Of a stretch of 64,000 nucleotides of DNA, positions 17,453-32,775 are shown piece by piece. This stretch comes from Candidatus Woesebacteria bacterium (GTDB lineage: Bacteria > Patescibacteriota > Microgenomatia > UBA1400 > PJMF01): NCBI GenBank assembly GCA_050123235.1, contig JASFHL010000007.1:75-64074 (forward strand), in the 5' to 3' direction. Every line of letters starts with the position of its first letter. Positions within the stretch are counted from its first letter, which is position 1. The notes beneath the pieces are model-generated. The model ran no database searches, was not told the origin of the DNA, and saw only the letters and a program-made list of their open reading frames with translations. The position numbers were made by a program, and so were the translations under genes.

Positions 17453-18541
17453 ATGATCATTTTAAATACAAAAGACACCAGTCAAGCAGAAATAATTGAA
17501 CAAGCGGTAGCTGTTTTAAAAAAAGGCGGTTTAGTGATTTATCCTACAGAGACCGTGTATGGGGCCGGGGTAGACGTCAGCAATCAGGCGGCAGTGAATA
17601 AGTTATTGCAGTACAAGTCACGTCGAGAAGGAAAGCCTTTGTCAGTGGCAGTCACTGATCAAAAAATGGCTGAAAAATATGTAGAGATTAATAAGCAAGC
17701 CAAAAAATTATATAAACAATTTTTACCTGGGCCAATGACAATCATTTCTAAAGGCAAAGATACAGTGGCGGCTGGAGTTGAATCTGAATTTGGAACTTTA
17801 GGAATTAGAATTCCTGATTATGATTTGATTTTGAAAATAGTAGCAAAATTAGGCAGAGGGATTACTGCTACTTCTGCTAATGCCTCTGGTAAAAAAAGAC
17901 CCTATACAGTAGCAGATATTTTAAATAATCTTTCAGCAAAGCAGAAAAACTTGATAGATTTAATTATTGATGCTGGCAAATTAGCGCCTAATCCACCCTC
18001 TACAGTGATTGATACCACTTTATCTACTCCTACTATTTTACGAAAAGGCAAGACTAAGCTTGTTGGTTCTGATGAAAAAAGCACTCAACTTAAATCAGAA
18101 TCAGAAAAGATGACTAAAGAAATTGCCGGTCGAATTATGCTCAAATACTGGGATCGAATTAAAAAAACAGCTTTGATTTTAGGCTTAGATGGTCAATTAG
18201 GAGCTGGTAAAACAATTTTTACCAAAGGTGTGGCTGAATTTCTTAAAATCAAAGAAACTATCAGTTCCCCAACTTATACTTATCTCAATGAATATGACTT
18301 TAAAAGATACCAAACAAAAGGGAAACTCTACCACTTTGACATGTGGAAAGTAGATTCAGAAAAGGAGTTGACTTTGTTTGAGATAGATAAGTTAGTTAGA
18401 CCTAATAATGTCTTGGTGATCGAGTGGTGGGATCAGATTGCTGGCTTTTTAGCTAATAAGAGATATGCAATTATTAAAATAAATATTGATGTATTAGATA
18501 AAGAAAATAGGGAGTTGATAATTACTGAAAAATTTTCATAA
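17453..18541 (+). CDS. fused TsaC (YrdC, L-threonylcarbamoyladenylate synthase) and TsaE (P-loop ATPase) t6A biosynthesis protein
   Basis: N-terminus 'VIYPTETVYGAGVDVSNQAAVNKLLQYKSR' is the YrdC fold. C-terminus has the TsaE motifs 'LGLDGQLGAGKTIFTKG', 'SPTYTYLNEY' and 'YHFDMWKV'. Confidence 0.75.
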   Translation: MIILNTKDTSQAEIIEQAVAVLKKGGLVIYPTETVYGAGVDVSNQAAVNKLLQYKSRREGKPLSVAVTDQKMAEKYVEINKQAKKLYKQFLPGPMTIISKGKDTVAAGVESEFGTLGIRIPDYDLILKIVAKLGRGITATSANASGKKRPYTVADILNNLSAKQKNLIDLIIDAGKLAPNPPSTVIDTTLSTPTILRKGKTKLVGSDEKSTQLKSESEKMTKEIAGRIMLKYWDRIKKTALILGLDGQLGAGKTIFTKGVAEFLKIKETISSPTYTYLNEYDFKRYQTKGKLYHFDMWKVDSEKELTLFEIDKLVRPNNVLVIEWWDQIAGFLANKRYAIIKINIDVLDKENRELIITEKFS

Positions 18542-25054: not shown

Positions 25055-25141
25055 ACAATAAATGTAAGTCTTTAGAGCGCGAAGCTTCACTTCTTAGATT
25101 AGTGGAACTTTACTAGGATTGTTTTAAAATGTAGCAGAGGT

Positions 25142-25215
25142 GGGATTTGAACCCACGACCTTCGGTTTATGAATCCGATGCTCTAACCAACTGAGCTACC
25201 CTGCCAAGTAAAACG
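25142..25215 (-). tRNA. tRNA with CAU anticodon (Met elongator or Ile2-lysidine type)
   Basis: Reverse complement reads GGCAGGGTAGCTCAGTTGGTTAGAGCA-TCGGA-TTCATAA-ACCGA-AGGTC-GTGGGTTCAAATCCCAC-CTCTGC. D and T arms are canonical and the anticodon loop is TT-CAT-AA. G1:C72 means it is not an initiator. CCA is not encoded. Confidence 0.8.
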
Positions 25216-25357
25216 AGTTAGAATTTTTATAAGTCGCTTATTAGCTTAACTGCAAACATGCAGATCGCTTAGATTAAATTCAACGTCCTTGATTATATCA
25301 GACTACTTGGGGTATAATAAACCCCTCTTTATATCTCTTTAGGAAAATATAAAAGAC

Positions 25358-25425
25358 GCGCGGGATAGTGTACGGTGCACGTGAGGCTCATAATCTTACA
25401 GGCTAGGTTCGACTCCTAGTCCCGC
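25358..25425 (+). other. tRNA-like sequence with CAU anticodon loop (possible second tRNA, or an att-site tRNA remnant)
   Basis: CGCGGGA...TCCCGCA acceptor with a C1:A72 mismatch. T arm CTAGG-TTCGACT-CCTAG. Anticodon arm TGAGG-CTCATAA-TCTTA. The D loop is short (5 nt). It abuts or overlaps the 3' end of the serine recombinase gene. Confidence 0.35.
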
Positions 25426-27176
25426 AACAATGAGGGAATGAGAGGTTGTAGATAGGTTAATTTGTCCTCTACATCCATCAATTTTCCAGGTTCGACCGAA
25501 ATACCTAAGTCTTTTGCTTCTTGCTTGCATTTTTCTATCATCCAAAATGGGTTATCCCGATTTATCAACACTTTTTTATTATGTAGCTTTAGGTTCGACC
25601 CAAGCATCTGAAGTATTTGAGTCTTAGTTTTAACATCACCTTGAGCAAACCAATAACGGGCATAGCAGGCAAACTCGAAAGTTTTTTTTGATATTTCAAT
25701 CCAATCATATTGCCTTTGGTCCGTTGTTTGCATATCATTTTTTACTGTCTCAATTTCTTTTTTAAGTTTACTGAGTTCTGCCTCATAAGCTTCTTTCTCT
25801 TCTTCACTGGATTCTTCATATAGATCAGTAAAGCGGTGCTTTGTCATCCTTCTAAGCCTGGATTTGAGCTTCTCGTAGTTGGTAGTATTTCGTTTAGTAG
25901 CATCCTGGTCCTGGTCCACTTCTTTGTCATTTAATTCACTTATGTGATTAATAGCCCAATCTTTGAAGTCAGGATCAATCTCGAATTTTTTTAACTCATT
26001 GTCAATTTGTTCTTCAAGCTTTCCTATTTCTAAATATCCTTGAGAACAATTTTTATTGACCTTTTTGGTGCAGTGATAGTAGATGTAATGGAGAATAGTG
26101 GGGTTTTTCATCAATTCTATTTTCAAACCACACTTAATACACCTATCTCTTTTCCTTGTTTTAGCAAATTTTTTGCTACATTTTGGACAAATTATTTGCC
26201 ATTTTTCCTCAGCAGTGATAAAACCACCACATTCACCACAAGTCATAATCCCTTTATAGGGAAAATCATATTTTTTTTGTATCGAGCGGCTTTTTTTACC
26301 TAGTCTAATCTGGATAATATCCCATTCATCTTTAGTAAACATTTTTGGGTATTTATGTTCACTTTCTTGGGTTACGCCTTCGATCTTTCTACTCATAACT
26401 CCATAATAAAAAGGGTCAGATAAAAGTCTGTAATAAGTTGATCTTGAAAGCGGTCCATCTCCTTGTTTTCTTTGAGGTAGGGTCCTGTATCCCATATCAT
26501 TATTGAGCCAGTTTAAACTTTCTAAAACGGTCATTTCACCGCTAATTATTTTTTTTCCAGCCTGTTGTAGCAAAGAAAATCTTTTTTGATCTACTTTAAC
26601 ATCGCGTTTTTTGGTAAAAGGATGAGTAAAATTAATAAATCCTTGCTTAGCTGGACCACCCCATTCTTTATTCTCAAAAAATTTATACTTATTTCCACTA
26701 TGAACATGGTCCGAAAGCTTAGTTGATTCATACTGTGATTGACTCAAGGCAAACTGGAGCAGCAAAATACCTTCGGCACTGTTATCAAATGTATAAGTGG
26801 CAAACTTAATATCTAGAATCTTTTTATCTGCTATGAGTTGCACGATTTTTCCTGCCTCAGTGGGGTTCCTTGAGAGTCTATTAGGGTGAAATACAATTAA
26901 GCCTGTTACTTTGCCTGCCTCAATTAAGTTAATCAATTTATTAAACTCGGGACGGTTGTCTGGTTTATAAGCACTTTTGCTTTCTGATAGATGATAACTT
27001 CTCTTATATTCTTTTTTTGGGAAACGTTTTGCTAGTTCTTGTCTCTGGCGAGGTATTGAGACATTCTGCTTATTAGATTTTTCATCTGATGAACGCCTGC
27101 TATATTCTGCCCAGATAATTTTATTTGGTGTGATGTTTATTCTTGGCATATAAAAACCCTCTCTGGGTGGACTCAA
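25416..27176 (-). CDS. large serine recombinase (phage-integrase type)
   Basis: N-terminal resolvase catalytic motif 'AEYSRRSSDEKSNKQ' (nucleophile Ser). Followed by a recombinase domain and a zinc ribbon 'CGECGG...CPKCSKKF', then a coiled-coil C-terminus. Confidence 0.8.
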   Translation of the reverse strand: MSPPREGFYMPRINITPNKIIWAEYSRRSSDEKSNKQNVSIPRQRQELAKRFPKKEYKRSYHLSESKSAYKPDNRPEFNKLINLIEAGKVTGLIVFHPNRLSRNPTEAGKIVQLIADKKILDIKFATYTFDNSAEGILLLQFALSQSQYESTKLSDHVHSGNKYKFFENKEWGGPAKQGFINFTHPFTKKRDVKVDQKRFSLLQQAGKKIISGEMTVLESLNWLNNDMGYRTLPQRKQGDGPLSRSTYYRLLSDPFYYGVMSRKIEGVTQESEHKYPKMFTKDEWDIIQIRLGKKSRSIQKKYDFPYKGIMTCGECGGFITAEEKWQIICPKCSKKFAKTRKRDRCIKCGLKIELMKNPTILHYIYYHCTKKVNKNCSQGYLEIGKLEEQIDNELKKFEIDPDFKDWAINHISELNDKEVDQDQDATKRNTTNYEKLKSRLRRMTKHRFTDLYEESSEEEKEAYEAELSKLKKEIETVKNDMQTTDQRQYDWIEISKKTFEFACYARYWFAQGDVKTKTQILQMLGSNLKLHNKKVLINRDNPFWMIEKCKQEAKDLGISVEPGKLMDVEDKLTYLQPLIPSLLRD

Positions 27177-27250
27177 ATCAAACTAATGACTTGTCCCAAA
27201 GAGGGTATTTATAGTCACTAGTTTAAGATTGAGTCCATAATCATTTTATA

Positions 27251-27439
27251 CTAATTTTCATTACTAAGTTGATTTAAAATATCTTGGTCCTCAATTGGGA
27301 TTGGTTTATAAATTAGAGCGAATCGCTTTAATTCCTTTAAAGCCATAACTTGAGCTTCTTCATAATCAAGCCATACACCGCATTTCTTTTGGTAAAGTTT
27401 TTGAAAGCTGGTGATGGCTTCGTGGCTTAGTTGCATCAC
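27251..27439 (-). CDS. hypothetical small protein
   Basis: 62-aa ORF in the same orientation as the recombinase block. Confidence 0.3.
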   Translation of the reverse strand: MMQLSHEAITSFQKLYQKKCGVWLDYEEAQVMALKELKRFALIYKPIPIEDQDILNQLSNEN

Positions 27440-28092
27440 AGAATAGTCCTTTCATCTGCTGTAATGTGTTCATCAAGCCATTTCATGTCTTCTGGTGGTA
27501 AATACTGGAAACCTTCTTCCTTATGAATGCGTTGGTAATCAGCCATAGTTCTTTGGTTTCCAACGGGGAGTGTGGTAACCACAGGGCTATTAACTTTAGA
27601 GTTAACCTTAGAGGAATTTAGAGTTCTAGGAGAATCAATCTCGAGGCAATTACGAACGGTTTGTTCAAAAGATTGAACTTTTGCTTCAGTTATTTGAAAA
27701 TTAGGTGCAATATTTTGAATAATTTGTTCAAACGATTGATTTAGTTCTTTTTGCTGAAATTGACTAGCTTGACCACCCCATTTTTTAGTTGTGGCTATAT
27801 ATCTTTCAGCATTGAAAATCTCATAAGTCTGTGGTTCTTGTGTAGGAATTAAAATACCTAAGGTTGTTAACTTAGTTATTTTTGTCCTAATTGAATTTGT
27901 GGAGCTATACCCTAAACAGGAGGCAAACTGTTTAAAATCTATTTTTACCTTTTTATATTGGCTATTTCTTGAATCAAACCCCATTTGATCAAGGCATAAC
28001 TCAAAAATAATAAATTCCTCTCTAGTTAAAATTTCGTGTTTTACCAGGAGAAAGCGGTTGCGATGAGAGGGGCGATAAGCATTGAAATTCAT
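27436..28092 (-). CDS. hypothetical protein with N-terminal winged-helix-like region (element replication/regulation candidate)
   Basis: 218 aa. No catalytic motif. Overlapping stop/start couplings with its neighbours suggest an operon. Confidence 0.35.
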   Translation of the reverse strand: MNFNAYRPSHRNRFLLVKHEILTREEFIIFELCLDQMGFDSRNSQYKKVKIDFKQFASCLGYSSTNSIRTKITKLTTLGILIPTQEPQTYEIFNAERYIATTKKWGGQASQFQQKELNQSFEQIIQNIAPNFQITEAKVQSFEQTVRNCLEIDSPRTLNSSKVNSKVNSPVVTTLPVGNQRTMADYQRIHKEEGFQYLPPEDMKWLDEHITADERTIL

Positions 28093-28358
28093 TACACCCC
28101 TTCATTAAATGCCTCCCAGGCAATCATGAAGTCAGTTAAGGTTCTATAATTACCTTCATTAATTGCTTGAACTGTTTCACCAAAATTAGTTAAAATTTTT
28201 CCATAATTGATTTTTAGGTAAAAAAAATCGACTTCTGAGATTTTTGCTTGCTTAACTTTATAAAGAATTCGTCTTCTTTTTTTGGAAAAGTAGTGCTTAA
28301 CCCTTCCATCTTTAAAAAAGATTTTTAGTTGATATCTCTTGGGTTTTTGAATTTTCAT
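28092..28358 (-). CDS. hypothetical small basic protein
   Basis: 88 aa, basic, first gene of the leftward block. Confidence 0.3.
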   Translation of the reverse strand: MKIQKPKRYQLKIFFKDGRVKHYFSKKRRRILYKVKQAKISEVDFFYLKINYGKILTNFGETVQAINEGNYRTLTDFMIAWEAFNEGV

Positions 28359-28383
28359 AAAAAAACTCCTTAGTAACTCCAGG

Positions 28384-28465
28384 TACGGAGTGTGACCTAG
28401 AGTTGCTAAAGAGTTTTTATCACTCCGTTTTTAGGCAAAAAAAAACCACGCAAAAAATTGCGTGG
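28384..28465. terminator. divergent-block hairpins
   Basis: CGGAGTG...CACTCCG+TTTTT on the plus strand. On the minus strand, a 9-nt A-run followed by CCACGCA-aaaaat-TGCGTGG gives a hairpin with a downstream T-run. Confidence 0.4.
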
Positions 28466-28482
28466 ATGTATTTTTATCCTAG

Positions 28483-28830
28483 TTGAAAGCGATTATAACA
28501 TATAGTTTTTTTTACAAAAGTAGTATATTCTCTTTAGAGAAAGATAGTTTAGCTATGTATAACAAACCAATGTCCCGTCAAGCTCTTTATTCCAAGGTTA
28601 GTAGTTATACTCCAGAAATCATTGATCGTCTTTTAGAGCTGAGTCGATCTTCCAATGAGAATGTTGCATTAGGAGCTTGCAAAACTTTACTTAGCAAATC
28701 AATTCCAGACTTAAAGGCTTTAAATGCAGCTGGTTTTGAAAATTATCAGCATGTGCGGAATGTTATCTATTTGCCTATAGAAAAAAAATGTTTGATCAAT
28801 AATGGGACGACTAACTTACCAGACTCATAG
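28483..28830 (+). CDS. hypothetical protein
   Basis: 115 aa. A more likely start is the internal Met 'MYNKPMSRQ'. Confidence 0.3.
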   Translation: MKAIITYSFFYKSSIFSLEKDSLAMYNKPMSRQALYSKVSSYTPEIIDRLLELSRSSNENVALGACKTLLSKSIPDLKALNAAGFENYQHVRNVIYLPIEKKCLINNGTTNLPDS

Positions 28831-28883
28831 AGGGGGGAGTGGTATAATGTATAATAGATTAAGTAAAATTAATCTTTGGACTT

Positions 28884-30548
28884 ATGCCTTCAAATAAAAC
28901 CTCTAAAACTAAGGTAAAAACGAAAAAACGTAAAACTTCAACTAAAACTCGCAAAAAAAAGTCTATTTCAAAAGTAAAAAAGGGAACTAAAAAGACTTCT
29001 ATTGCATCATTTTGCCCTGATTGTGGTACAAAACTTACTAAGACTGCTAAATTTTGTTCAGGCTGTGGTGAGAAGATAGCAAGTATCACAAGTAATAGTG
29101 AAAAGAGTAGAAATAAGCAAACTTTTTCATTGTTTAAAACTGTAATTCACTACTTTGAACGGATAAAACAAATTGATCGGAAAGTTGCTATAGCTATCGT
29201 GGTTATGATAGGCATACTATGCATTGGCATAGGCCATAAGTTAGGTGTTACAGATAGAATCATAATTGCAACGAGACAATGTTCAATAACCAATTCATCA
29301 GAAAAAGCACTTAACTCAGTTGTAAAAATAACAACTGATATGAATAGTGGTAGTGGTTTTTTTGTTGACGAGACTCATATTGTTACGAATAACCATGTTA
29401 TGGAGGGTGTTAAAGAAGCTAATATCACGCTTGGAACAGGTAAACTGACGAAAGCTAAGATTATTGGTTCAGATGAAGAAGCCGATATTGCTGTTCTAGA
29501 AATTGATGATGAAATAAAACCAGAATATTTGAAATGGGCTGAAGTAAAAGAAAAAGTTGCATCGGATATTGTAGCTATAGGTTTTCCTTTAAGTGACGAA
29601 GAATCGCTTAAGGGTGATGCTACTGTTACCAAAGGGACTATTTCTGCATATCGTGATGGTCTATATGGTATTCAGTATATACAAACTGATACGAGCATAA
29701 ATCCCGGCAATAGCGGTGGACCATTGCTTAATGAATGTGGTGAAGTGATCGGAGTAAATGATTTATATTTTAATCCCATAGGAAGTGCAGATCCTATTTT
29801 TTATGCCATCAACACAAAGTCAGCTAAGAAGGCAGTTGAAAAAATTCTAAAAGATCCTTCATATTCTGAACCTGTAGGCACATTGCCAAGATTTGAGGAT
29901 AACATAGAGCCTACTGATGTTGTCATGGCTTATTATCAGGGTTTGACAGAGGGCAGCTACATGATGTCGTATCAACTATTTACTATTGGCCGTCAAAAGG
30001 AATGGAAACCTGAGGAATGGCAAAATTTGTTTACAAATGTTCTGTCTATTGAGGTAAAAAATATCCAACAAATATCTACTGATCCAGTAAAAGTAAAAGC
30101 TGAAATGGATTTATATACAACTGATGGAGTTAATCTTTTAGTTAAGACAGCAGATTCGATTTGGACATTAAAGTATTCTCTTGGAAGGCTGGCACTTGAT
30201 GATGTTGAAATAGAATATGGTGAAGAGAAAGCGATATTTAATCAAGATTACGAAGATGCAATTAGGTTTAACAAAAGTTTAGCCGATACAGTTTATCCGG
30301 CTATTTTAAATAAAGACATGTCCTATTATCCTCAGCAACAGGTTGTAATTATTAAAGCTTTGATTGAAGAAAATACTGAAATTATCAACAGGCTTTTTCA
30401 AAAGGTAACCAATGGTGAGCCTTTGGATGAGTCGGAATTTTATGATAATGATCTTTTTGTTTCCAATCATGATCAAATATTAGACATAAACAAGGAATTT
30501 GAAAGCATTGATTTACAGAATTATTATTTAAATTATTACTCTGAGTAG
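28884..30548 (+). CDS. membrane-anchored trypsin-like (S1/HtrA-fold) serine protease with N-terminal zinc ribbon and unknown C-terminal domain
   Basis: Polybasic N-terminus, then 'CPDCGTKLTKTAKFCSGCGEKI', then TM 'VAIAIVVMIGILCIGI'. Catalytic triad contexts 'THIVTNNHV', 'DIAVLEID' and 'GNSGGPLLN'. The C-terminal ~220-aa domain matches nothing I recognise. Confidence 0.65.
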   Translation: MPSNKTSKTKVKTKKRKTSTKTRKKKSISKVKKGTKKTSIASFCPDCGTKLTKTAKFCSGCGEKIASITSNSEKSRNKQTFSLFKTVIHYFERIKQIDRKVAIAIVVMIGILCIGIGHKLGVTDRIIIATRQCSITNSSEKALNSVVKITTDMNSGSGFFVDETHIVTNNHVMEGVKEANITLGTGKLTKAKIIGSDEEADIAVLEIDDEIKPEYLKWAEVKEKVASDIVAIGFPLSDEESLKGDATVTKGTISAYRDGLYGIQYIQTDTSINPGNSGGPLLNECGEVIGVNDLYFNPIGSADPIFYAINTKSAKKAVEKILKDPSYSEPVGTLPRFEDNIEPTDVVMAYYQGLTEGSYMMSYQLFTIGRQKEWKPEEWQNLFTNVLSIEVKNIQQISTDPVKVKAEMDLYTTDGVNLLVKTADSIWTLKYSLGRLALDDVEIEYGEEKAIFNQDYEDAIRFNKSLADTVYPAILNKDMSYYPQQQVVIIKALIEENTEIINRLFQKVTNGEPLDESEFYDNDLFVSNHDQILDINKEFESIDLQNYYLNYYSE

Positions 30549-30673
30549 TTAATATTATTTTGCTGTAGCTGCAAGTAAGTCTTCTTGACTATTTTTATCT
30601 TTTATTTATTTTTATTAGGTTAATAGATGATTATAGATTGTGTATTTTTTTGATGCATTAAGCTATACTAACA

Positions 30674-30889
30674 ATGTGGGAAGAAAAACAAGATTTAAGC
30701 AAATTTGTATTTGAATTACCAGGTAGATATTATGCTCAAGCAGATTGCTTAACTAGAGGTAGGTATAAAATAACTATATCTGTTTATGGTAAAAATGCGA
30801 AAAAAATAACCAGAAATTTTTTTATATCATGGTCGGGTAATTGGAAAGACAATACAAATGATATGTTTAAAGAGTTAGTTATTAAGTGA
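30674..30889 (+). CDS. hypothetical small protein
   Basis: 71-aa ORF. Confidence 0.25.
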   Translation: MWEEKQDLSKFVFELPGRYYAQADCLTRGRYKITISVYGKNAKKITRNFFISWSGNWKDNTNDMFKELVIK

Positions 30890-30930
30890 GAGGATATCTA
30901 TCATGATAATTTGGTATACTCTATTTTAGA

Positions 30931-31437
30931 ATGCTTAGCTTTTTTGGTACCAAATCCCCTCCAAAGTTTACTCCTAAAGATACTAAGGATACAAAAAAAT
31001 TGATGAAGTTTGTTAAGTGGTTTGTTAACAATACCTCTAATGGAAAACTTTTGATTGATGAAGTGTCACGGTCTATTTTTGCTAGTGGTATTAGACCTGT
31101 TTCTGGTACAAGGAATACACCAAATTTGCCTCCTGAATTGGATACTGATCCGTATTATTGGTTTTTAGAGAGAATTAGATTAAGCCTAATAATGATATCT
31201 GAGAGAGAAGAAAACGACGTTAATGGAGTTATTTCCTTGATGGAGGAAGAGCTTGCTAGACATACTGCTGAGCTTAAAAGTTTATGCGAACAATATGGTG
31301 TAGTGTTTGAAGGTACGGATGTTTTAGCTGAAATTGAAAAAATTAGTAATGATATTGATAGGAAATGGTTTAAAAGTAAGTTGTTAGATTTTCGTTTTTC
31401 AATTCTAGAGTTAGATATCATCAAAACACTTTATTAG
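30931..31437 (+). CDS. hypothetical protein
   Basis: 168-aa ORF, helical and acidic. Confidence 0.35.
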   Translation: MLSFFGTKSPPKFTPKDTKDTKKLMKFVKWFVNNTSNGKLLIDEVSRSIFASGIRPVSGTRNTPNLPPELDTDPYYWFLERIRLSLIMISEREENDVNGVISLMEEELARHTAELKSLCEQYGVVFEGTDVLAEIEKISNDIDRKWFKSKLLDFRFSILELDIIKTLY

Positions 31438-31549
31438 TGATGGTTTTATAGCTAGCTTTTACAATTACGATTTAACTTATAGTGACGTAATTTACTGCTT
31501 TTTTTGAGGTAAAATAGGTTCTAACTTTCTCCCACATTGTCAACAATAG

Positions 31550-31575
31550 AAAAAAGACCCACAAGTGGGTCTTTT
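31550..31575. terminator. bidirectional Rho-independent terminator between convergent genes
   Basis: AAAAAGACCCAC-aa-GTGGGTCTTTT, with a perfect 10-bp stem flanked by A and T runs. Confidence 0.65.
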
Positions 31576-31616
31576 AAGTATTCTTCCAAAACACTTTTTT
31601 ATCTAAGAACATTTTC

Positions 31617-32252
31617 TCACTTCCTAGTTATTTTAAAAGATGTACTTTGCTCCTTTTTTAAAATATGATCTCCTCTTTCTCTTAATAAAAGTCTGTGACT
31701 GGCTACATCAACTAATGGAGAACTAATCAGCCAGTCAGTATAAAAATTGGGAATTCTTTCTGATAGTACGCGATAGAGAGCTGTTAGATCATCTTTACTA
31801 ATTGAGCAGGCGATAGCTACAAAACAGCCACTTTTTTCTTTTAAACGTGATGTTGCCGTAACTAGTAAAGAAACAATTTTTTCTAAATCAGGCAAGTTAT
31901 GCAATTCATGAGCTTTCTTTGTTTTGAACTCTTTTTCAGTTAAAAATCTACCCCAGATAGGAGGAGCTTTCATAATAATATAATCAAAATAATGAAGAGG
32001 ATAATACTCTCCCAGCTTATAAGCATCACCAATGATATGATTTGGTCCATTGAATGTTCCTAGATCTACTGAATGATACTCACCACCACGCTCTCTGATA
32101 GGGAGCATCATCGATGATTGAGCATCTCCTGAAAAAAGTTCAAGTATGCATTTACCTCTTAGATCTTCTGGTAATTGAAGCCATTCTTTGACTGCTTTTT
32201 CTGCCACAGGTTCAGGATCTGGATACCACTTTATTCTTGGATCTTCTGACAT
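31617..32252 (-). CDS. SAM-dependent methyltransferase-like protein (amino-MTase motif order I then IV, atypical 'APPIW')
   Basis: 'ILELFSGDAQSS' is an FxGxG-like motif I. About 55 aa later, 'DYIIMKAPPIW' resembles (D/N/S)PP(Y/F/W) with Ala in the first position. Confidence 0.3.
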   Translation of the reverse strand: MSEDPRIKWYPDPEPVAEKAVKEWLQLPEDLRGKCILELFSGDAQSSMMLPIRERGGEYHSVDLGTFNGPNHIIGDAYKLGEYYPLHYFDYIIMKAPPIWGRFLTEKEFKTKKAHELHNLPDLEKIVSLLVTATSRLKEKSGCFVAIACSISKDDLTALYRVLSERIPNFYTDWLISSPLVDVASHRLLLRERGDHILKKEQSTSFKITRK

Positions 32253-32418
32253 AAAGATAGTTTATTACTAAGTCATCGCTTTTATCAAATGATGATTGGG
32301 ATCTTAGTATTGTTCAAAGTTTGGTCTTTGAGATAAGATTATTTAGAAAGATTTTAATCCATTTATCAAGTCAAACTTAGAAATAAACCTTAAGATAATC
32401 ATACTATATTTGGGATTT

Positions 32419-32775
32419 TTAATCTCCAAATAACAACTTTTTCCATTCCTGCCAAGGACTTTCTATCTCTATTGCGATTTTTTTATTCTCGTTTTTTGTC
32501 TCAGTAGGAATTTGGATAATATATTCTCCTGGACGTTGCATCAAAAGATCATTTCTTTGAATTTTTTCTTTTGTTAGAGGATAGTCTGCTTCTGCAATCT
32601 TATTTTCTAATTCTTGGATGTTTTCAGATTGTTTTTTGACTTCGTTTTGTAAAATTTCTACATTTTTCTGTGATTGATGGCTAATATTTTCAGTTTTCTT
32701 GAGGGAAAGAATAAAAGATAAGCTAAGAATGCTAAAAGCAATAAGAATAATTGGTTGTGATAGAAAACGATTCAT
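32419..32775 (-). CDS. membrane-anchored coiled-coil protein
   Basis: N-terminal TM followed by an E/K-rich heptad region. Confidence 0.35.
   Translation of the reverse strand: MNRFLSQPIILIAFSILSLSFILSLKKTENISHQSQKNVEILQNEVKKQSENIQELENKIAEADYPLTKEKIQRNDLLMQRPGEYIIQIPTETKNENKKIAIEIESPWQEWKKLLFGD

What the first reader, a model, noticed from the sequence alone, without database searches (positions are those of the whole stretch)
25142..32300. Putative integrated element at tRNA-Met: tRNA, divergent tRNA-like CAU sequence, large serine recombinase and cargo
A canonical tRNA(CAU) at 25142-25215 (minus strand) is followed at 25358-25425 (plus strand) by a second tRNA-like sequence. That sequence has a CTCATAA anticodon loop, a good T arm, a C1:A72 acceptor and a shortened D arm, and it abuts the stop of a 586-aa large serine recombinase. 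Downstream lie small element-like ORFs, a winged-helix protein, strong bidirectional terminators, a secreted protease and a methyltransferase-like gene. The right boundary could not be located by eye.
Basis: partly seen in the sequence, partly recalled or inferred. Interest (0 to 1): 0.7.

Follow-up and report, generated by a model that had tools for sequence, protein, structure and literature searches.

The report
Serine-integrase element in initiator-type tRNA
A 6.1-kb mobile element sits at the very 3' end of a conserved initiator-like tRNA gene of a candidate-phyla bacterium; the large serine integrase that put it there has its own reading frame running across the recombination site, an arrangement shared by a whole, apparently undescribed family of tRNA-targeting integrases.

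Summary
Both tRNA(CAU) genes pass ARAGORN and Rfam, and a 577-aa large serine recombinase (LSR) ends inside the second tRNA with a 12-nt convergent overlap.

The "divergent tRNA-like" sequence is a genuine host gene. It occurs in 78 species genomes, shows compensatory changes, and has an initiator-like C1xA72 acceptor stem. Only 4 of 55 assessable genomes carry the LSR next to it. Others have empty or differently filled sites in the same GroEL...DivIC-Xer synteny.

I mapped both junctions:
- attL: crossover CA at 25425-25426, which is tRNA positions 71-72.
- attR: crossover at 31541-31542, followed by the displaced host terminator.

The element is therefore 6116 bp. The methyltransferase-like gene lies outside it.

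The reconstructed attP is a symmetric site. Its T-loop-like motif lies 5 bp further from the crossover than in the tRNA arm, as in the LI-integrase model.

The LSR reading frame crosses the crossover. The integrated copy ends ...LL-RD*. The excised form would carry a tail that is conserved in relatives. Family members target tRNA-iMet, Ser, Asn and Gln with the same geometry.

No excised form of this clade was found, and the function of the tail is inferred. I rate it a new variant of a known kind, interest 0.6.

The parts
25131..25205 (-). Host tRNA-Met(CAU), canonical. It is a neighbour only, neither the target nor part of the element.
   Evidence: ARAGORN and Rfam, 71.2 bits. The same divergent tRNA pair is seen in LSR-free genomes L016, L027 and L066.
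25289..25318 (+). Promoter-like site (TTGATT-18-TATAAT) upstream of the target tRNA. This is host DNA.
   Evidence: Consensus scan, 10 of 12 matches. Consensus match only.
25359..25427 (+). Host tRNA(CAU) with an initiator-like acceptor stem (C1xA72, G2-C71, C3-G70, A73). It carries attB.
   Evidence: Rfam 43.3 bits and ARAGORN. Found in 78 species loci. Six pairs show compensatory changes and 95% of cells are paired.
25405..25451 (.). attL. B arm 25405-25424 (AGGTTC-N8-GTCCCG), crossover CA 25425-25426 (tRNA positions 71-72), P' arm 25427-25451 (ACAATGAGGGAATG...).
   Evidence: Comparison of attL, attR and empty sites in five clade-A elements.
25416..27149 (-). Large serine recombinase, integrated isoform (577 aa). 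Its last codons R-D-stop are encoded by the antisense of the tRNA.
   Evidence: Pfam Resolvase 61 bits, with Recombinase and Zn_ribbon_recom just below their cut-offs. Alignment to the TnpX catalytic domain puts the catalytic Ser at S20. More than 2800 homologues.
27251..27439 (-). p62, a small three-helix protein always found directly upstream of the LSR. Candidate directionality factor or regulator (inferred).
   Evidence: Conserved next to LSRs down to 40% LSR identity. AF2 pLDDT 88 with no PDB fold match.
27436..28092 (-). p218, a winged-helix protein and possible replication initiator.
   Evidence: Rep3_N WH1 scores 21.8 bits against a cut-off of 22.4. Homologues lie in the same position in L002, L008 and L092. 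The L090 counterpart carries HTH_36.
28092..28358 (-). p88, a small core-module protein.
   Evidence: Homologues lie in the same position in L004 and L093. No family hit.
28446..28465 (.). Bidirectional terminator between the core module and the cargo.
   Evidence: Terminator scan.
28483..28830 (+). p115, a cargo ORF of unknown function.
   Evidence: ORF list. No family hit. No homologue in the 78 related loci.
28884..30548 (+). Cargo: a trypsin-like (HtrA-type) protease with an N-terminal zinc ribbon and a hydrophobic segment.
   Evidence: Trypsin_2 at 2.5e-30 and Zn_Ribbon_1. phrog_11383 at 9e-41. The protease domain also hits defence-associated models. Absent from related loci.
30674..30889 (+). 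p71, a cargo ORF of unknown function.
   Evidence: ORF list. No credible family hit.
30931..31437 (+). p168, a cargo ORF of unknown function.
   Evidence: ORF list. No family hit.
31472..31540 (-). Detached 3' 'tail' of the LSR reading frame (TMWEKVRTYFTSKKAVNYVTIS*). It is in frame with the LSR only in the excised (attP) form.
   Evidence: Reconstruction. Homologous tails lie at attR of L002, L008, L093, L095, L010 and L097, and inside the uninterrupted LSR ORF of L090.
31516..31562 (.). attR. P arm 31516-31540 (AGGTTC-N8-TCCCAC-ATTGT), crossover CA 31541-31542, B' arm from 31543 (ACAATAGAAAAAAG...).
   Evidence: A motif derived from the other elements hits the 64-kb window only here, and 0 of 100 shuffles match.
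31552..31575 (.). The tRNA's original host terminator, displaced 6.1 kb by the insertion.
   Evidence: The 24-nt hairpin is identical to the one that directly follows the tRNA in the LSR-free genome L082.
25427..31542 (.). The integrated element as a whole, 6116 bp from crossover to crossover.

Best explanation
**What it is.** The region 25427-31542 is a 6.1-kb integrative, probably plasmid-like element. A large serine recombinase (LSR) inserted it into the 3' end of a conserved host tRNA(CAU) gene that has an initiator-like acceptor stem.

**Shown by comparison.**
- The crossover dinucleotide is CA, which is tRNA positions 71-72.
- Only the discriminator base and the 3' trailer are replaced by element DNA, so the tRNA stays intact and no long direct repeat is made.
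- The reconstructed attP is a two-fold symmetric site, AGGTTC-N8-TCCCAC-N5-CA-N5-G(A/T)GGGA.
- The tRNA arm of attB carries the same outer T-loop motif 5 bp closer to the crossover. This is how the zinc-ribbon-domain motif differs between attP and attB in the LI integrase model.
- attP lies inside the LSR reading frame. In the integrated state the ORF ends ...LL-RD*, and RD-stop is read from the antisense of the tRNA. In the excised state the ORF would continue through the P arm into a tail, which is 22 aa here and 33-41 aa and conserved in relatives.

**Inferred.**
- The two isoforms, or the convergent tRNA transcription, help set when and in which direction the enzyme acts.
- The co-conserved 62-aa protein upstream is the directionality factor or regulator.
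- The winged-helix p218 replicates the excised circle.
- The protease and small ORFs are cargo.
For: **The tRNA is a host gene.**
- 78 species loci carry it. Among them are 73 intron-less full copies in 27 sequence variants.
- Six base pairs show compensatory changes.
- The LSR is present in only 4 of 55 assessable loci.
- The synteny GroES-GroEL...tRNA...DivIC-Xer-TrpRS is conserved, with 0 to more than 6.6 kb between the tRNA and DivIC.

**The LSR stop always lies in the tRNA.**
- This holds in every clade-A locus: L001, L003, L004-6, L008, L031, L047, L051, L053, L092, L093 and L095.

**attR.**
- The P-arm motif followed by a host-type terminator is found in the window, L002, L008, L095 and L093.
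- The motif occurs once in the window, with 0 of 100 shuffles matching.
- The window's B' hairpin is identical to the terminator after the tRNA in the empty site of L082.
- In L008, attL and attR share only CAA, which pins down the crossover.

**Geometry.**
- The T-loop motif lies 10 nt from the crossover in tRNA arms and 15 nt in P arms. This holds for iMet, Ser, Asn and Gln targets and for two uninterrupted attP forms.
- It matches Rutherford et al. 2013 (PMC3783163).

**Tail.**
- The tail is in frame in the window and in five of the six relatives with a mapped attR (L002, L008, L095, L010, L097). The sixth, L093, has a changed junction and a stop.
- Many synonymous codon differences are present.
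- In L090 one uninterrupted ORF contains the tail.

**Family.**
- About 98 of the 120 top homologues end in antisense-tRNA peptides.
- p62 is co-conserved with the LSR.
Against: - No excised or circular form of the iMet-targeting clade was found. Viral contigs gave nothing. The metagenome scan gave one chance hit. The junction-spanning protein search found only integrated forms.
- L090 has an intact attP but is not demonstrably circular.
- The window's tail is shorter than in relatives and lacks their F-x-F-P motif.
- The window's element-supplied hairpin after the tRNA is weak, z -1.0 against -4.3 in relatives.
- Part of the tail's conservation (V-R-T = GTTAGAACC, M-W = AATGTGGGA) is forced by the DNA-binding motifs.
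- GC content is not distinctive.
- The Recombinase and zinc-ribbon Pfam scores are just under their cut-offs.
- Crossover position and activity are inferred from sequence comparison of MAG contigs, not shown experimentally.
Confidence: 0.85

Rival explanations
1. The element is a fixed, no longer mobile remnant. Integration happened as described, but the copy in this genome can no longer excise.
For: - The tail is truncated and divergent relative to L002, L008 and L095.
- The replacement terminator is weak.
- No free form was found in any collection.
- A relative, L093, has a mismatched crossover (TA against CA), which shows that such decay does occur.
Against: - The LSR ORF is intact, with its catalytic serine motif.
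- Both crossovers are CA, and both P arms keep the conserved motifs and spacing.
- p62, p218 and p88 are intact.
Confidence: 0.25
2. The second tRNA(CAU) belongs to the element, either as an element-borne tRNA or as an att-site duplicate of the canonical tRNA-Met, rather than to the host.
For: - It is always physically linked to the LSR stop codon in LSR-bearing loci.
- It scores lower than the neighbouring tRNA.
Against: - 51 of 55 assessable species genomes have it without any LSR, in conserved synteny and followed by their own terminators.
- It is not similar to the neighbouring tRNA-Met.
- Covariation supports a functional cloverleaf.
Confidence: 0.02
3. The LSR is a domesticated host recombinase, for example an invertase that flips the tRNA-plus-island block, not the integrase of a mobile element.
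For: - The block [tRNA + variable region] occurs in both orientations between GroEL and DivIC in different species.
- The family has a very uniform length.
Against: - Both orientations occur with and without the LSR. The variable DNA always lies 3' of the tRNA, as expected if an old inversion of the tRNA was followed by site-specific insertions.
- The LSR is sporadic, 4 of 55.
- The cargo differs completely between elements.
- attL and attR are in direct, not inverted, orientation.
Confidence: 0.04
4. The island is composite, or extends to DivIC at 32419. On this view the 211-aa methyltransferase-like ORF is cargo and 31541 is an internal site.
For: - The 211-aa ORF has no homologue in any of the 78 related loci, so it too is variable DNA.
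- The tRNA-to-DivIC interval is a general hot spot holding other inserts without an LSR.
Against: - The P arm, the crossover and a hairpin identical to a native tRNA terminator all sit at 31516-31575.
- The same order (P arm, crossover, terminator) marks the ends of elements L002, L008 and L095.
- The 211-aa ORF is more simply an older, separate acquisition lying outside the LSR element.
Confidence: 0.08
5. The reading frame across attP is a by-product. On this view the tail is conserved only because it overlaps LSR-binding DNA, and the two isoforms do not differ in function.
For: - The best-conserved tail residues (M-W, V/I-R-T) coincide with the inner and outer DNA motifs of the P arm.
- Tail length varies from 22 to 41 aa.
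- With the CUGGG/CCCAG T-stem variant the integrated ORF simply reads on through the antisense tRNA, so the integrated C-terminus is not under tight control.
Against: - Conservation continues 15-25 codons beyond the roughly 25-bp P arm (L/F-F-x-F-P-D/E...N-N-D/E-E-Y), with synonymous changes, in L002, L008, L093 and L095.
- The frame is kept open in the window and in five of the six relatives with a mapped attR, across three tRNA targets.
Confidence: 0.3

Closest known systems
Large serine integrases of temperate phages and ICEs (phiC31, Bxb1, A118/LI, SPbeta SprA, TnpX, CcrAB, XisF)
   Same: - N-terminal resolvase catalytic domain, followed by recombinase and zinc-ribbon regions.
- Short att sites with a non-palindromic 2-bp crossover.
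- An attP with inverted arms.
- The outer (ZD-type) motif lies 5 bp closer to the crossover in attB than in attP (PMC3783163).
   Different: - The target is a tRNA gene. Mageeney et al. [quoted passage not shown]
- attP lies inside the integrase's own ORF.
- The elements are 5.5-11 kb, with no phage structural or conjugation genes.
- Similarity to named LSR equivalogs is far below their cut-offs.
tRNA-targeting genomic islands with tyrosine integrases (P4-type, Islander-type islands)
   Same: - Insertion at the 3' end of a tRNA gene.
- The element restores the gene.
- The integrase gene sits at the tRNA-proximal end.
- The original downstream sequence is displaced to the far junction.
   Different: - The enzyme is a serine, not a tyrosine, recombinase.
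- The junctions share only 2-3 nt instead of a direct repeat of tens of nt.
- The crossover is at positions 71-72, so only the discriminator base and the trailer are replaced.
SSV-type (and pTN3-type) archaeal integrases
   Same: - attP lies within the integrase ORF, so integration interrupts the int gene. PMC5861418 calls this unique to them.
- From my own knowledge, their targets are also tRNA genes.
   Different: - Those are tyrosine recombinases of archaeal viruses and plasmids, and the gene is split well inside.
- Here a bacterial serine recombinase loses only a 22-41-aa C-terminal tail and keeps all recognisable domains.
Integration-dependent immunity of mycobacteriophage BPs and relatives
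   Same: attP sits inside a coding sequence of the element, so integration changes the C-terminus of the encoded protein (PMC4557955 abstract).
   Different: - There the affected gene is the repressor and the integrase is a tyrosine recombinase.
- From my own knowledge, the removed tail there is a degradation tag. No such function is shown here.
phiRSM-type small serine recombinase integrases
   Same: - Serine-recombinase-driven site-specific integration (PMC7192596).
- From my own knowledge, the phiRSM attB is a tRNA-Ser 3' end.
   Different: Those are resolvase-sized enzymes without the recombinase and zinc-ribbon domains. The protein here is 577 aa with both regions.

Membership tests
Large serine recombinase (serine integrase) | N-terminal resolvase-type catalytic domain with the nucleophilic serine | tested here: met
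   PF00239 scores 61.2 bits against a cut-off of 23.3. Alignment to the TnpX catalytic domain places YSRRS(S20)DE on its YERLSRDD motif.
Large serine recombinase (serine integrase) | Recombinase domain (PF07508) after the catalytic domain | tested here: inconclusive
   20.0 bits against a cut-off of 21.1 in the window protein. Many homologues at 40-50% identity carry a precomputed PF07508 hit.
Large serine recombinase (serine integrase) | Zinc-ribbon domain with an embedded coiled coil | tested here: inconclusive
   PF13408 scores 20.3 bits against a cut-off of 25.3. Cys pairs (CGECGG, CPKC, CIKC, HC) are visible in the sequence. The coiled coil was not tested.
Large serine recombinase (serine integrase) | Short attP/attB sites with a 2-bp non-palindromic crossover, a symmetric attP, and the ZD motif shifted 5 bp in attB | tested here: met
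   By sequence comparison only. TCCCAC-N5-CA-N5-GWGGGA is symmetric. The T-loop motif lies 15 nt from the crossover in P arms and 10 nt in B arms, in 7 elements and 2 uninterrupted attP forms.
Large serine recombinase (serine integrase) | Unidirectional integration, with excision needing a directionality factor | not testable with these tools
   p62 is only a positional and co-conservation candidate.
Integrative genetic element (attL, attR and int identifiable; sporadic among relatives) | attL, attR and a contained integrase gene | tested here: met
   attL at 25405-25451, attR at 31516-31562, LSR at 25416-27149.
Integrative genetic element (attL, attR and int identifiable; sporadic among relatives) | Uninterrupted target site in related genomes | tested here: met
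   51 of 55 assessable species loci lack the LSR. L041 has DivIC 4 nt after the tRNA. In L082 the tRNA is followed by the same terminator as the window's B' arm.
Integrative genetic element (attL, attR and int identifiable; sporadic among relatives) | Excised circular form | tested here: not met
   None was found for this clade. A more distant member, L090, has an intact attP on a 7-kb contig without a terminal overlap.
Bacterial initiator tRNA(fMet) | CAU anticodon, a 1x72 mismatch or weak pair, G2-C71, C3-G70 and A73 | tested here: met
   C1xA72 in 25 sequence variants and U1.G72 in 2. G2-C71, C3-G70, G4-C69 and A73 are invariant. Which features define an initiator is from established knowledge of E. 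coli tRNAfMet.
Bacterial initiator tRNA(fMet) | Three consecutive G-C pairs 29-41, 30-40, 31-39 in the anticodon stem | tested here: not met
   The window has A29-U41, G30-C40 and G31.U39. G31.U39 is invariant in all 27 variants. I therefore call it initiator-like and do not file it as a proven initiator.
Bacterial initiator tRNA(fMet) | A11-U24 in the D stem | tested here: not met
   U11-A24 is invariant. The 5' 21 nt were fixed by the search pattern.
Prophage | Virion structural, packaging or lysis genes | tested here: not met
   No PHROG structural hit among the 7 non-LSR ORFs. Only the protease matches, to a family of unknown function and a protease family. The element is 6.1 kb.
Plasmid-type replicon (Rep3/RepA winged-helix initiator) | Rep initiator domain | tested here: inconclusive
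   p218 scores 21.8 bits on Rep3_N against a cut-off of 22.4, covering only profile positions 5-65. No PDB sequence match.
SSV-type integrase | Tyrosine recombinase catalytic fold | tested here: not met
   The protein is a serine recombinase. Only the 'attP inside int' layout is shared.

The most novel reading that the evidence does not exclude
A Patescibacteria-wide family of large serine integrases has specialised on tRNA genes. It reads the universal T-loop sequence at a fixed distance from acceptor positions 71-72 and crosses over there. Because attP lies inside its own reading frame, the enzyme exists as a full-length episomal isoform and a tail-less (or antisense-tRNA-tailed) integrated isoform. 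This built-in, integration-dependent switch contributes to directionality or expression control. It would be the serine-recombinase counterpart of SSV-type int splitting and of integration-dependent immunity.
Probability: 0.35. Interest if true: 0.8.

Novelty: new variant of a known kind. Interest (0 to 1): 0.6.

Why it matters
- **tRNA targets.** Serine integrases are the workhorses of genome engineering, yet they have been regarded as not using tRNA genes. A 2020 survey found 14 of 297 cases and asked for proof. Here a large, coherent family does so in at least four tRNA species. Its att architecture can be read directly from genomes.
- **Retargeting.** The tRNA arm supplies a universal T-loop motif at the attB spacing. 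This suggests how one enzyme scaffold can be retargeted from tRNA to tRNA. It also offers predicted attP/attB pairs for testing.
- **Natural experiment.** Having attP inside the integrase ORF gives a natural test of whether the extreme C-terminus of an LSR affects directionality.
- **Candidate-phyla biology.** For candidate-phyla bacteria, where mobile elements and genetic tools are barely known, it defines a hot spot (tRNA to DivIC). It also defines a class of small, possibly self-replicating integrative elements carrying variable cargo: a protease here, and restriction-modification, SIR2/DUF87 and toxin-antitoxin genes in relatives.

Tried and rejected
1. **Second tRNA copy or fragment as a direct repeat in the window.** None was found for the 27-nt 3' part, the 30-nt 5' part or the 17-nt end, each with up to 3 mismatches. 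The junctions share only CA(A).
2. **Generic repeat finding over 24.4-34 kb.** Only chance-level pairs.
3. **AACAATGTGGGAA at 30669.** This 13-mer first looked like a junction, but it sits in the promoter and start region of p71 without the flanking motifs. I dropped it.
4. **Free-form searches.**
   - tRNA pattern and LSR in viral contigs: nothing.
   - attP pattern in viral contigs: nothing.
   - attP pattern in metagenome contigs: one hit, L089, an unrelated Bacteroidetes-like contig.
   - Protein search with a reconstructed junction-spanning C-terminus: only two integrated-form fragments.
5. **L090 circularity.** No terminal overlap.
6. **L010's two identical tRNA-Ser(TGA) genes.** At first I read them as an element-borne tRNA copy. 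The canonical P arm directly beside the distal copy shows they are tandem host genes.
7. **p62 fold search.** No PDB match.
8. **p218 in PDB sequences.** Nothing.
9. **PHROGs, NCBIfam and PADLOC on the small ORFs.** Nothing usable.
10. **Composition.** Uninformative.
11. **Literature searches for an LSR-tRNA system in candidate phyla.** No description found.

Full report
**Observation**

ARAGORN finds two tRNA(CAU) genes in the window, at 25131-25205 (-) and 25359-25428 (+). Rfam's tRNA model scores them 71.2 and 43.3 bits against a gathering score of 29.

The second tRNA has these features:
- acceptor stem CGCGGGA/UCCCGCA with a C1xA72 mismatch and discriminator A73;
- anticodon loop CUCAUAA;
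- an intact 4-bp D stem with a 5-nt D loop;
- a weak anticodon stem.

A large serine recombinase (LSR) ORF runs on the minus strand from 27149 (ATG, 577 aa) or 27176 (TTG, 586 aa) down to 25416. The 577-aa form is the deposited one. The ORF's last 12 nt are the reverse complement of the tRNA's acceptor 3' strand and T stem.

Otherwise the description is correct. GC content is flat across the region.

**Setting**

The window is chromosomal DNA of a small-genome candidate-phyla bacterium. It carries GroES/GroEL, a Sua5-TsaE fusion, TsaD, DivIC, a Xer-type recombinase, TrpRS and FtsH. The source record is labelled 'Candidatus Woesebacteria bacterium'.

**The second tRNA is a host gene**

A 21-nt pattern from its unusual D arm was scanned over one genome per species and returned 78 loci. 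By their record titles most are Pacebacteria/Paceibacterota or 'Patescibacteria group' MAGs.

- 73 loci carry full-length intron-less copies, in 27 sequence variants.
- Six base pairs in the anticodon and T stems change on both sides while staying paired. 95% of cells are paired, against 23-59% when partners are slid.
- Position 1:72 is CxA in 25 variants and U.G in 2, so it is never a strong pair.
- Of 55 loci with at least 1.8 kb downstream of the tRNA, only 4 have the LSR.
- The flanks are syntenic: GroES-GroEL, then the tRNA, then a variable stretch of 0 to more than 6.6 kb, then DivIC(-), Xer(+), TrpRS, p111 and FtsH.
- In L041, DivIC ends 4 nt after the tRNA.
- In most LSR-free loci the tRNA is followed directly by a hairpin and T-run terminator.

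The tRNA is therefore the attB-bearing host gene. It is not a pseudo-tRNA made by integration.

Its acceptor-stem features are those known to mark E. coli initiator tRNA. It lacks the three G-C pairs in the anticodon stem and lacks A11-U24. I call it initiator-like and leave its identity open.

**The LSR-tRNA overlap is conserved**

The LSR has more than 2800 homologues, nearly all from candidate-phyla MAGs and nearly all about 575 aa. In every relative at 58-76% identity whose contig I could read, the stop codon lies in the T stem of the same tRNA, or the contig breaks inside the tRNA.

**Mapping the far junction**

No second copy or fragment of the tRNA exists in the window. That fits a serine recombinase, which leaves only its 2-bp crossover duplicated.

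The bidirectional terminator at 31552-31575 is identical over 24 nt to the terminator that directly follows the tRNA in the LSR-free genome L082. Immediately to its left lies AGGTTCTAACTTTCTCCCACATTGT-CA-ACAAT.

The same arrangement lies at the LSR-distal end of the variable DNA in L002/L003, L008/L009, L095 and L093. It consists of a conserved arm AGGTTC-N8-TCCCAC-N5, then CA, then a host-type terminator. L093 has TA in place of CA.

A pattern built from those other elements hits the 64-kb window once, at 31518-31537. None of 100 shuffles match.

Joining the element-side halves gives attP = ...TCCCAC-ATTGT-CA-ACAAT-GAGGGA.... This is a two-fold symmetric site around a non-palindromic CA. In L008 the two junctions share only CAA.

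The crossover is thus tRNA C71-A72, at window 25425-25426 and 31541-31542. The element measures 6116 bp. Relatives measure 5.5 to 11.1 kb. The 211-aa methyltransferase-like ORF (31617-32252) lies outside the element.

**Site geometry**

Read in the LSR's direction, the motif (A/G)TT(C/A)GAAC(C/T) is the reverse complement of the tRNA T loop GGTTCGAA.

It begins 10 nt after the crossover in tRNA arms:
- window (iMet);
- L096 (tRNA-Gln);
- L097 (tRNA-Asn);
- L010 (tRNA-Ser).

It begins 15 nt after the crossover in P arms:
- five iMet-clade attR sites;
- L010 attR;
- L097 attR;
- the uninterrupted sites of L090 and L091.

A 5-bp inward shift of the zinc-ribbon-domain motif in attB relative to attP is exactly what Rutherford et al. 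proposed for LI integrase and other LSRs (PMC3783163). I take this as independent support for the site assignment. It also suggests that the family uses the universal T loop as its attB outer motif. That second point is inference.

**The integrase gene spans attP**

The crossover lies in the second Leu codon of ...P-S-L-L. In the integrated copy the frame continues into tRNA antisense: R-D-stop.

With the T-stem variant CUGGG/CCCAG the stop codon becomes TGG, and the ORF runs through the whole antisense tRNA. An example is P0006, which ends ...LLRDWESNPACEIMSLTCTVHYPAR....

Joining across the crossover continues the frame into the P arm and beyond:

| Element | Tail added in the reconstructed excised form |
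|---|---|
| window | TMWEKVRTYFTSKKAVNYVTIS* (22 aa) |
| L002 | RMWDDIRTWIKSQKLFIFPDIAMAVPNNDDYLMWRNESDWL* (41 aa) |
| L008 | 33 aa |
| L095 | 39 aa |
| L010 | RRTIDAVRTYFINNYSMVPVYSAL* |
| L097 | RIVDDVRTYIQNHKG... |

Codon alignment shows many synonymous differences, and conservation extends well beyond the roughly 25-bp arm.

In L090 there is no tRNA on a 7-kb contig. One uninterrupted ORF there contains the homologous tail (...WL-RRVDEVRTYFIDNN...) with the 15-nt spacing.

About 98 of the 120 best homologues end in peptides typical of antisense tRNA, such as ...W-L-R-G-R-D-S-N-P. At the DNA level the targets include tRNA-Ser(TGA), tRNA-Gln(TTG) and tRNA-Asn(GTT).

**Content of the element**

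- *Core module (minus strand).* It comprises the LSR, p62, p218 and p88. p62 accompanies the LSR across the whole family, down to 40% LSR identity. It is a confident three-helix model with no PDB neighbour. I propose it as a directionality factor or regulator on position alone.
- *Possible replication functions.* p218 has a sub-threshold Rep3_N winged-helix match. Its counterparts are an HTH_36 protein in L090 and a PrimPol/D5 primase-helicase in L091. This suggests the excised circle replicates.
- *Cargo (plus strand, after the terminator at 28446-28465).* It comprises p115, a Zn-ribbon/TM/trypsin-like protease, p71 and p168. None of these is found in any related locus.
- *Cargo in relatives.* It includes type I restriction-modification, SIR2/DUF87, an FtsK-like ATPase, HigB, a tubulin/FtsZ homologue and Bro-N.
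- *No phage structural genes*.

**What is shown and what is inferred**

- *Shown by comparison:* host status of the tRNA, sporadic presence of the element, both junctions, attP symmetry, the 10/15-nt rule, and the open frame across attP.
- *Inferred:* the exact 2-bp crossover, current mobility, any functional difference between the isoforms, and the roles of p62 and p218.
- *Negative results:* no excised form of the iMet clade in viral or metagenome contigs, nor in the protein collection. The window's tail is short, and its element-supplied hairpin after the tRNA is weak compared with relatives.

**Comparison with known systems**

It works like a phage-type serine integrase system. Its catalytic domain meets the family's threshold and its att-site features fit by comparison. 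The recombinase and zinc-ribbon domains score just below threshold, and the coiled coil and directionality could not be tested.

- *tRNA target.* Mageeney et al. 2020 found 14 of 297 S-Int elements at t(m)RNA genes. [quoted passage not shown]
- *attP inside the int ORF.* This layout is described as unique to archaeal SSV-type tyrosine integrases (PMC5861418).
- *Integration changing a protein's C-terminus.* This is known for the repressor of BPs-like mycobacteriophages (PMC4557955).

Four literature searches found no description of this family in candidate phyla.

**Verdict**

The novelty lies in the integrase family rather than in this copy. I rate it a new variant of a known kind, interest 0.6.

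Noticed in passing
L011 4681-4887 (+); L072 6832-7038 (-): In two species the same C1xA72 tRNA(CAU) is interrupted in its anticodon loop by a group I intron (Rfam RF00028, 56-57 bits). This fits recent reports of tRNA introns in Patescibacteria (PMC13011429).
   Followed up: partly
L083 about 1140-1310, compared with L024; also L014, L016, L022, L027, L056, L069, L076, L079 and L086: A conserved insert of about 110-170 nt follows the tRNA's terminator in at least 10 species. It ends with a 14-nt repeat of the tRNA 3' end (CCTAGTCCCGCAAC) and a second terminator. It has no Rfam match and contains a T-loop-like GTTCGAATC. It may be a miniature element or a small RNA gene that uses the same tRNA by a different, repeat-making mechanism. 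L057 has a 17-nt repeat 57 nt downstream of the tRNA.
   Followed up: partly
L001, L015, L017, L043, L047, L050, L057, L069, L087, L092: In these genomes the tRNA, together with whatever is inserted 3' of it, lies in the opposite orientation between GroEL and DivIC-Xer. This occurs with or without an LSR. It looks like an old inversion of the tRNA rather than LSR-driven flipping, but I did not test whether the genomes form one clade.
   Followed up: no
L010 6119-6237 and 11708-11889 (CP066685.1, Levyibacteria): The LSR element is bracketed by two identical full-length tRNA-Ser(TGA) genes. The canonical P arm and tail ORF lie directly beside the distal copy. The host therefore had tRNA-Ser(GCT), tRNA-Ser(TGA) and tRNA-Ser(TGA) packed 1 nt apart, and the element entered the first TGA copy.
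   Followed up: yes
Proteins P0006, P0011, P0014, P0017, P0021 (L047 carries P0011): Where the tRNA T stem is CUGGG/CCCAG, the LSR stop TAG becomes TGG. Annotated LSRs then gain 25-40 residues translated from the antisense of the whole tRNA (..WESNPACEIMSLTCTVHYPAR..).
   Followed up: yes
L093 about 880-900: The attR of this element has TA where all the others have the crossover CA, and the junction frame is closed by a stop codon. A mismatched central dinucleotide should block excision, so this copy is probably locked in.
   Followed up: partly
L031, L047, L051 and L053, the 60 nt after the tRNA; window 25428-25486: In relatives a strong hairpin followed by U6-7 lies on the tRNA strand inside the LSR's C-terminal coding region (z about -4.3, with compensatory changes). 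It would be an element-supplied replacement terminator for the tRNA. The window's version is weak (z -1.0), so tRNA transcription may read antisense into the LSR gene here.
   Followed up: partly
window 31617-32252 (-): The 211-aa ORF between the displaced terminator and DivIC has methyltransferase-like motifs by eye (ELFSGDA, APPIW). It hits no Pfam, NCBIfam, PHROG or PADLOC family and has no homologue in 78 related loci. It is variable DNA outside the LSR element.
   Followed up: partly
window 25416-27149; The window's LSR (MGD9129633.1) was missing from the homologue list. In the protein collection it is clustered under an unrelated 48-aa Microcystis protein. Its neighbours p62, p218 and the protease are also recorded on a 115,926-nt JGI contig where this exact LSR sequence is not.
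   Followed up: no
window 17453-18541 (+): A single ORF fuses Sua5/TsaC with TsaE, both t6A-synthesis proteins. The same fusion is present in relatives L008, L093 and L095.
   Followed up: no
window 28884-30548 (+): The cargo protease's trypsin-like domain matches protease modules of defence proteins (RT-Protease class XI at 1e-22; weaker hits to HamA1 and Avs1b) and the phage family phrog_11383 (9e-41). It may be a defence or counter-defence effector. Relatives carry restriction-modification, SIR2/DUF87 and toxin-antitoxin cargo at the same position.
   Followed up: no
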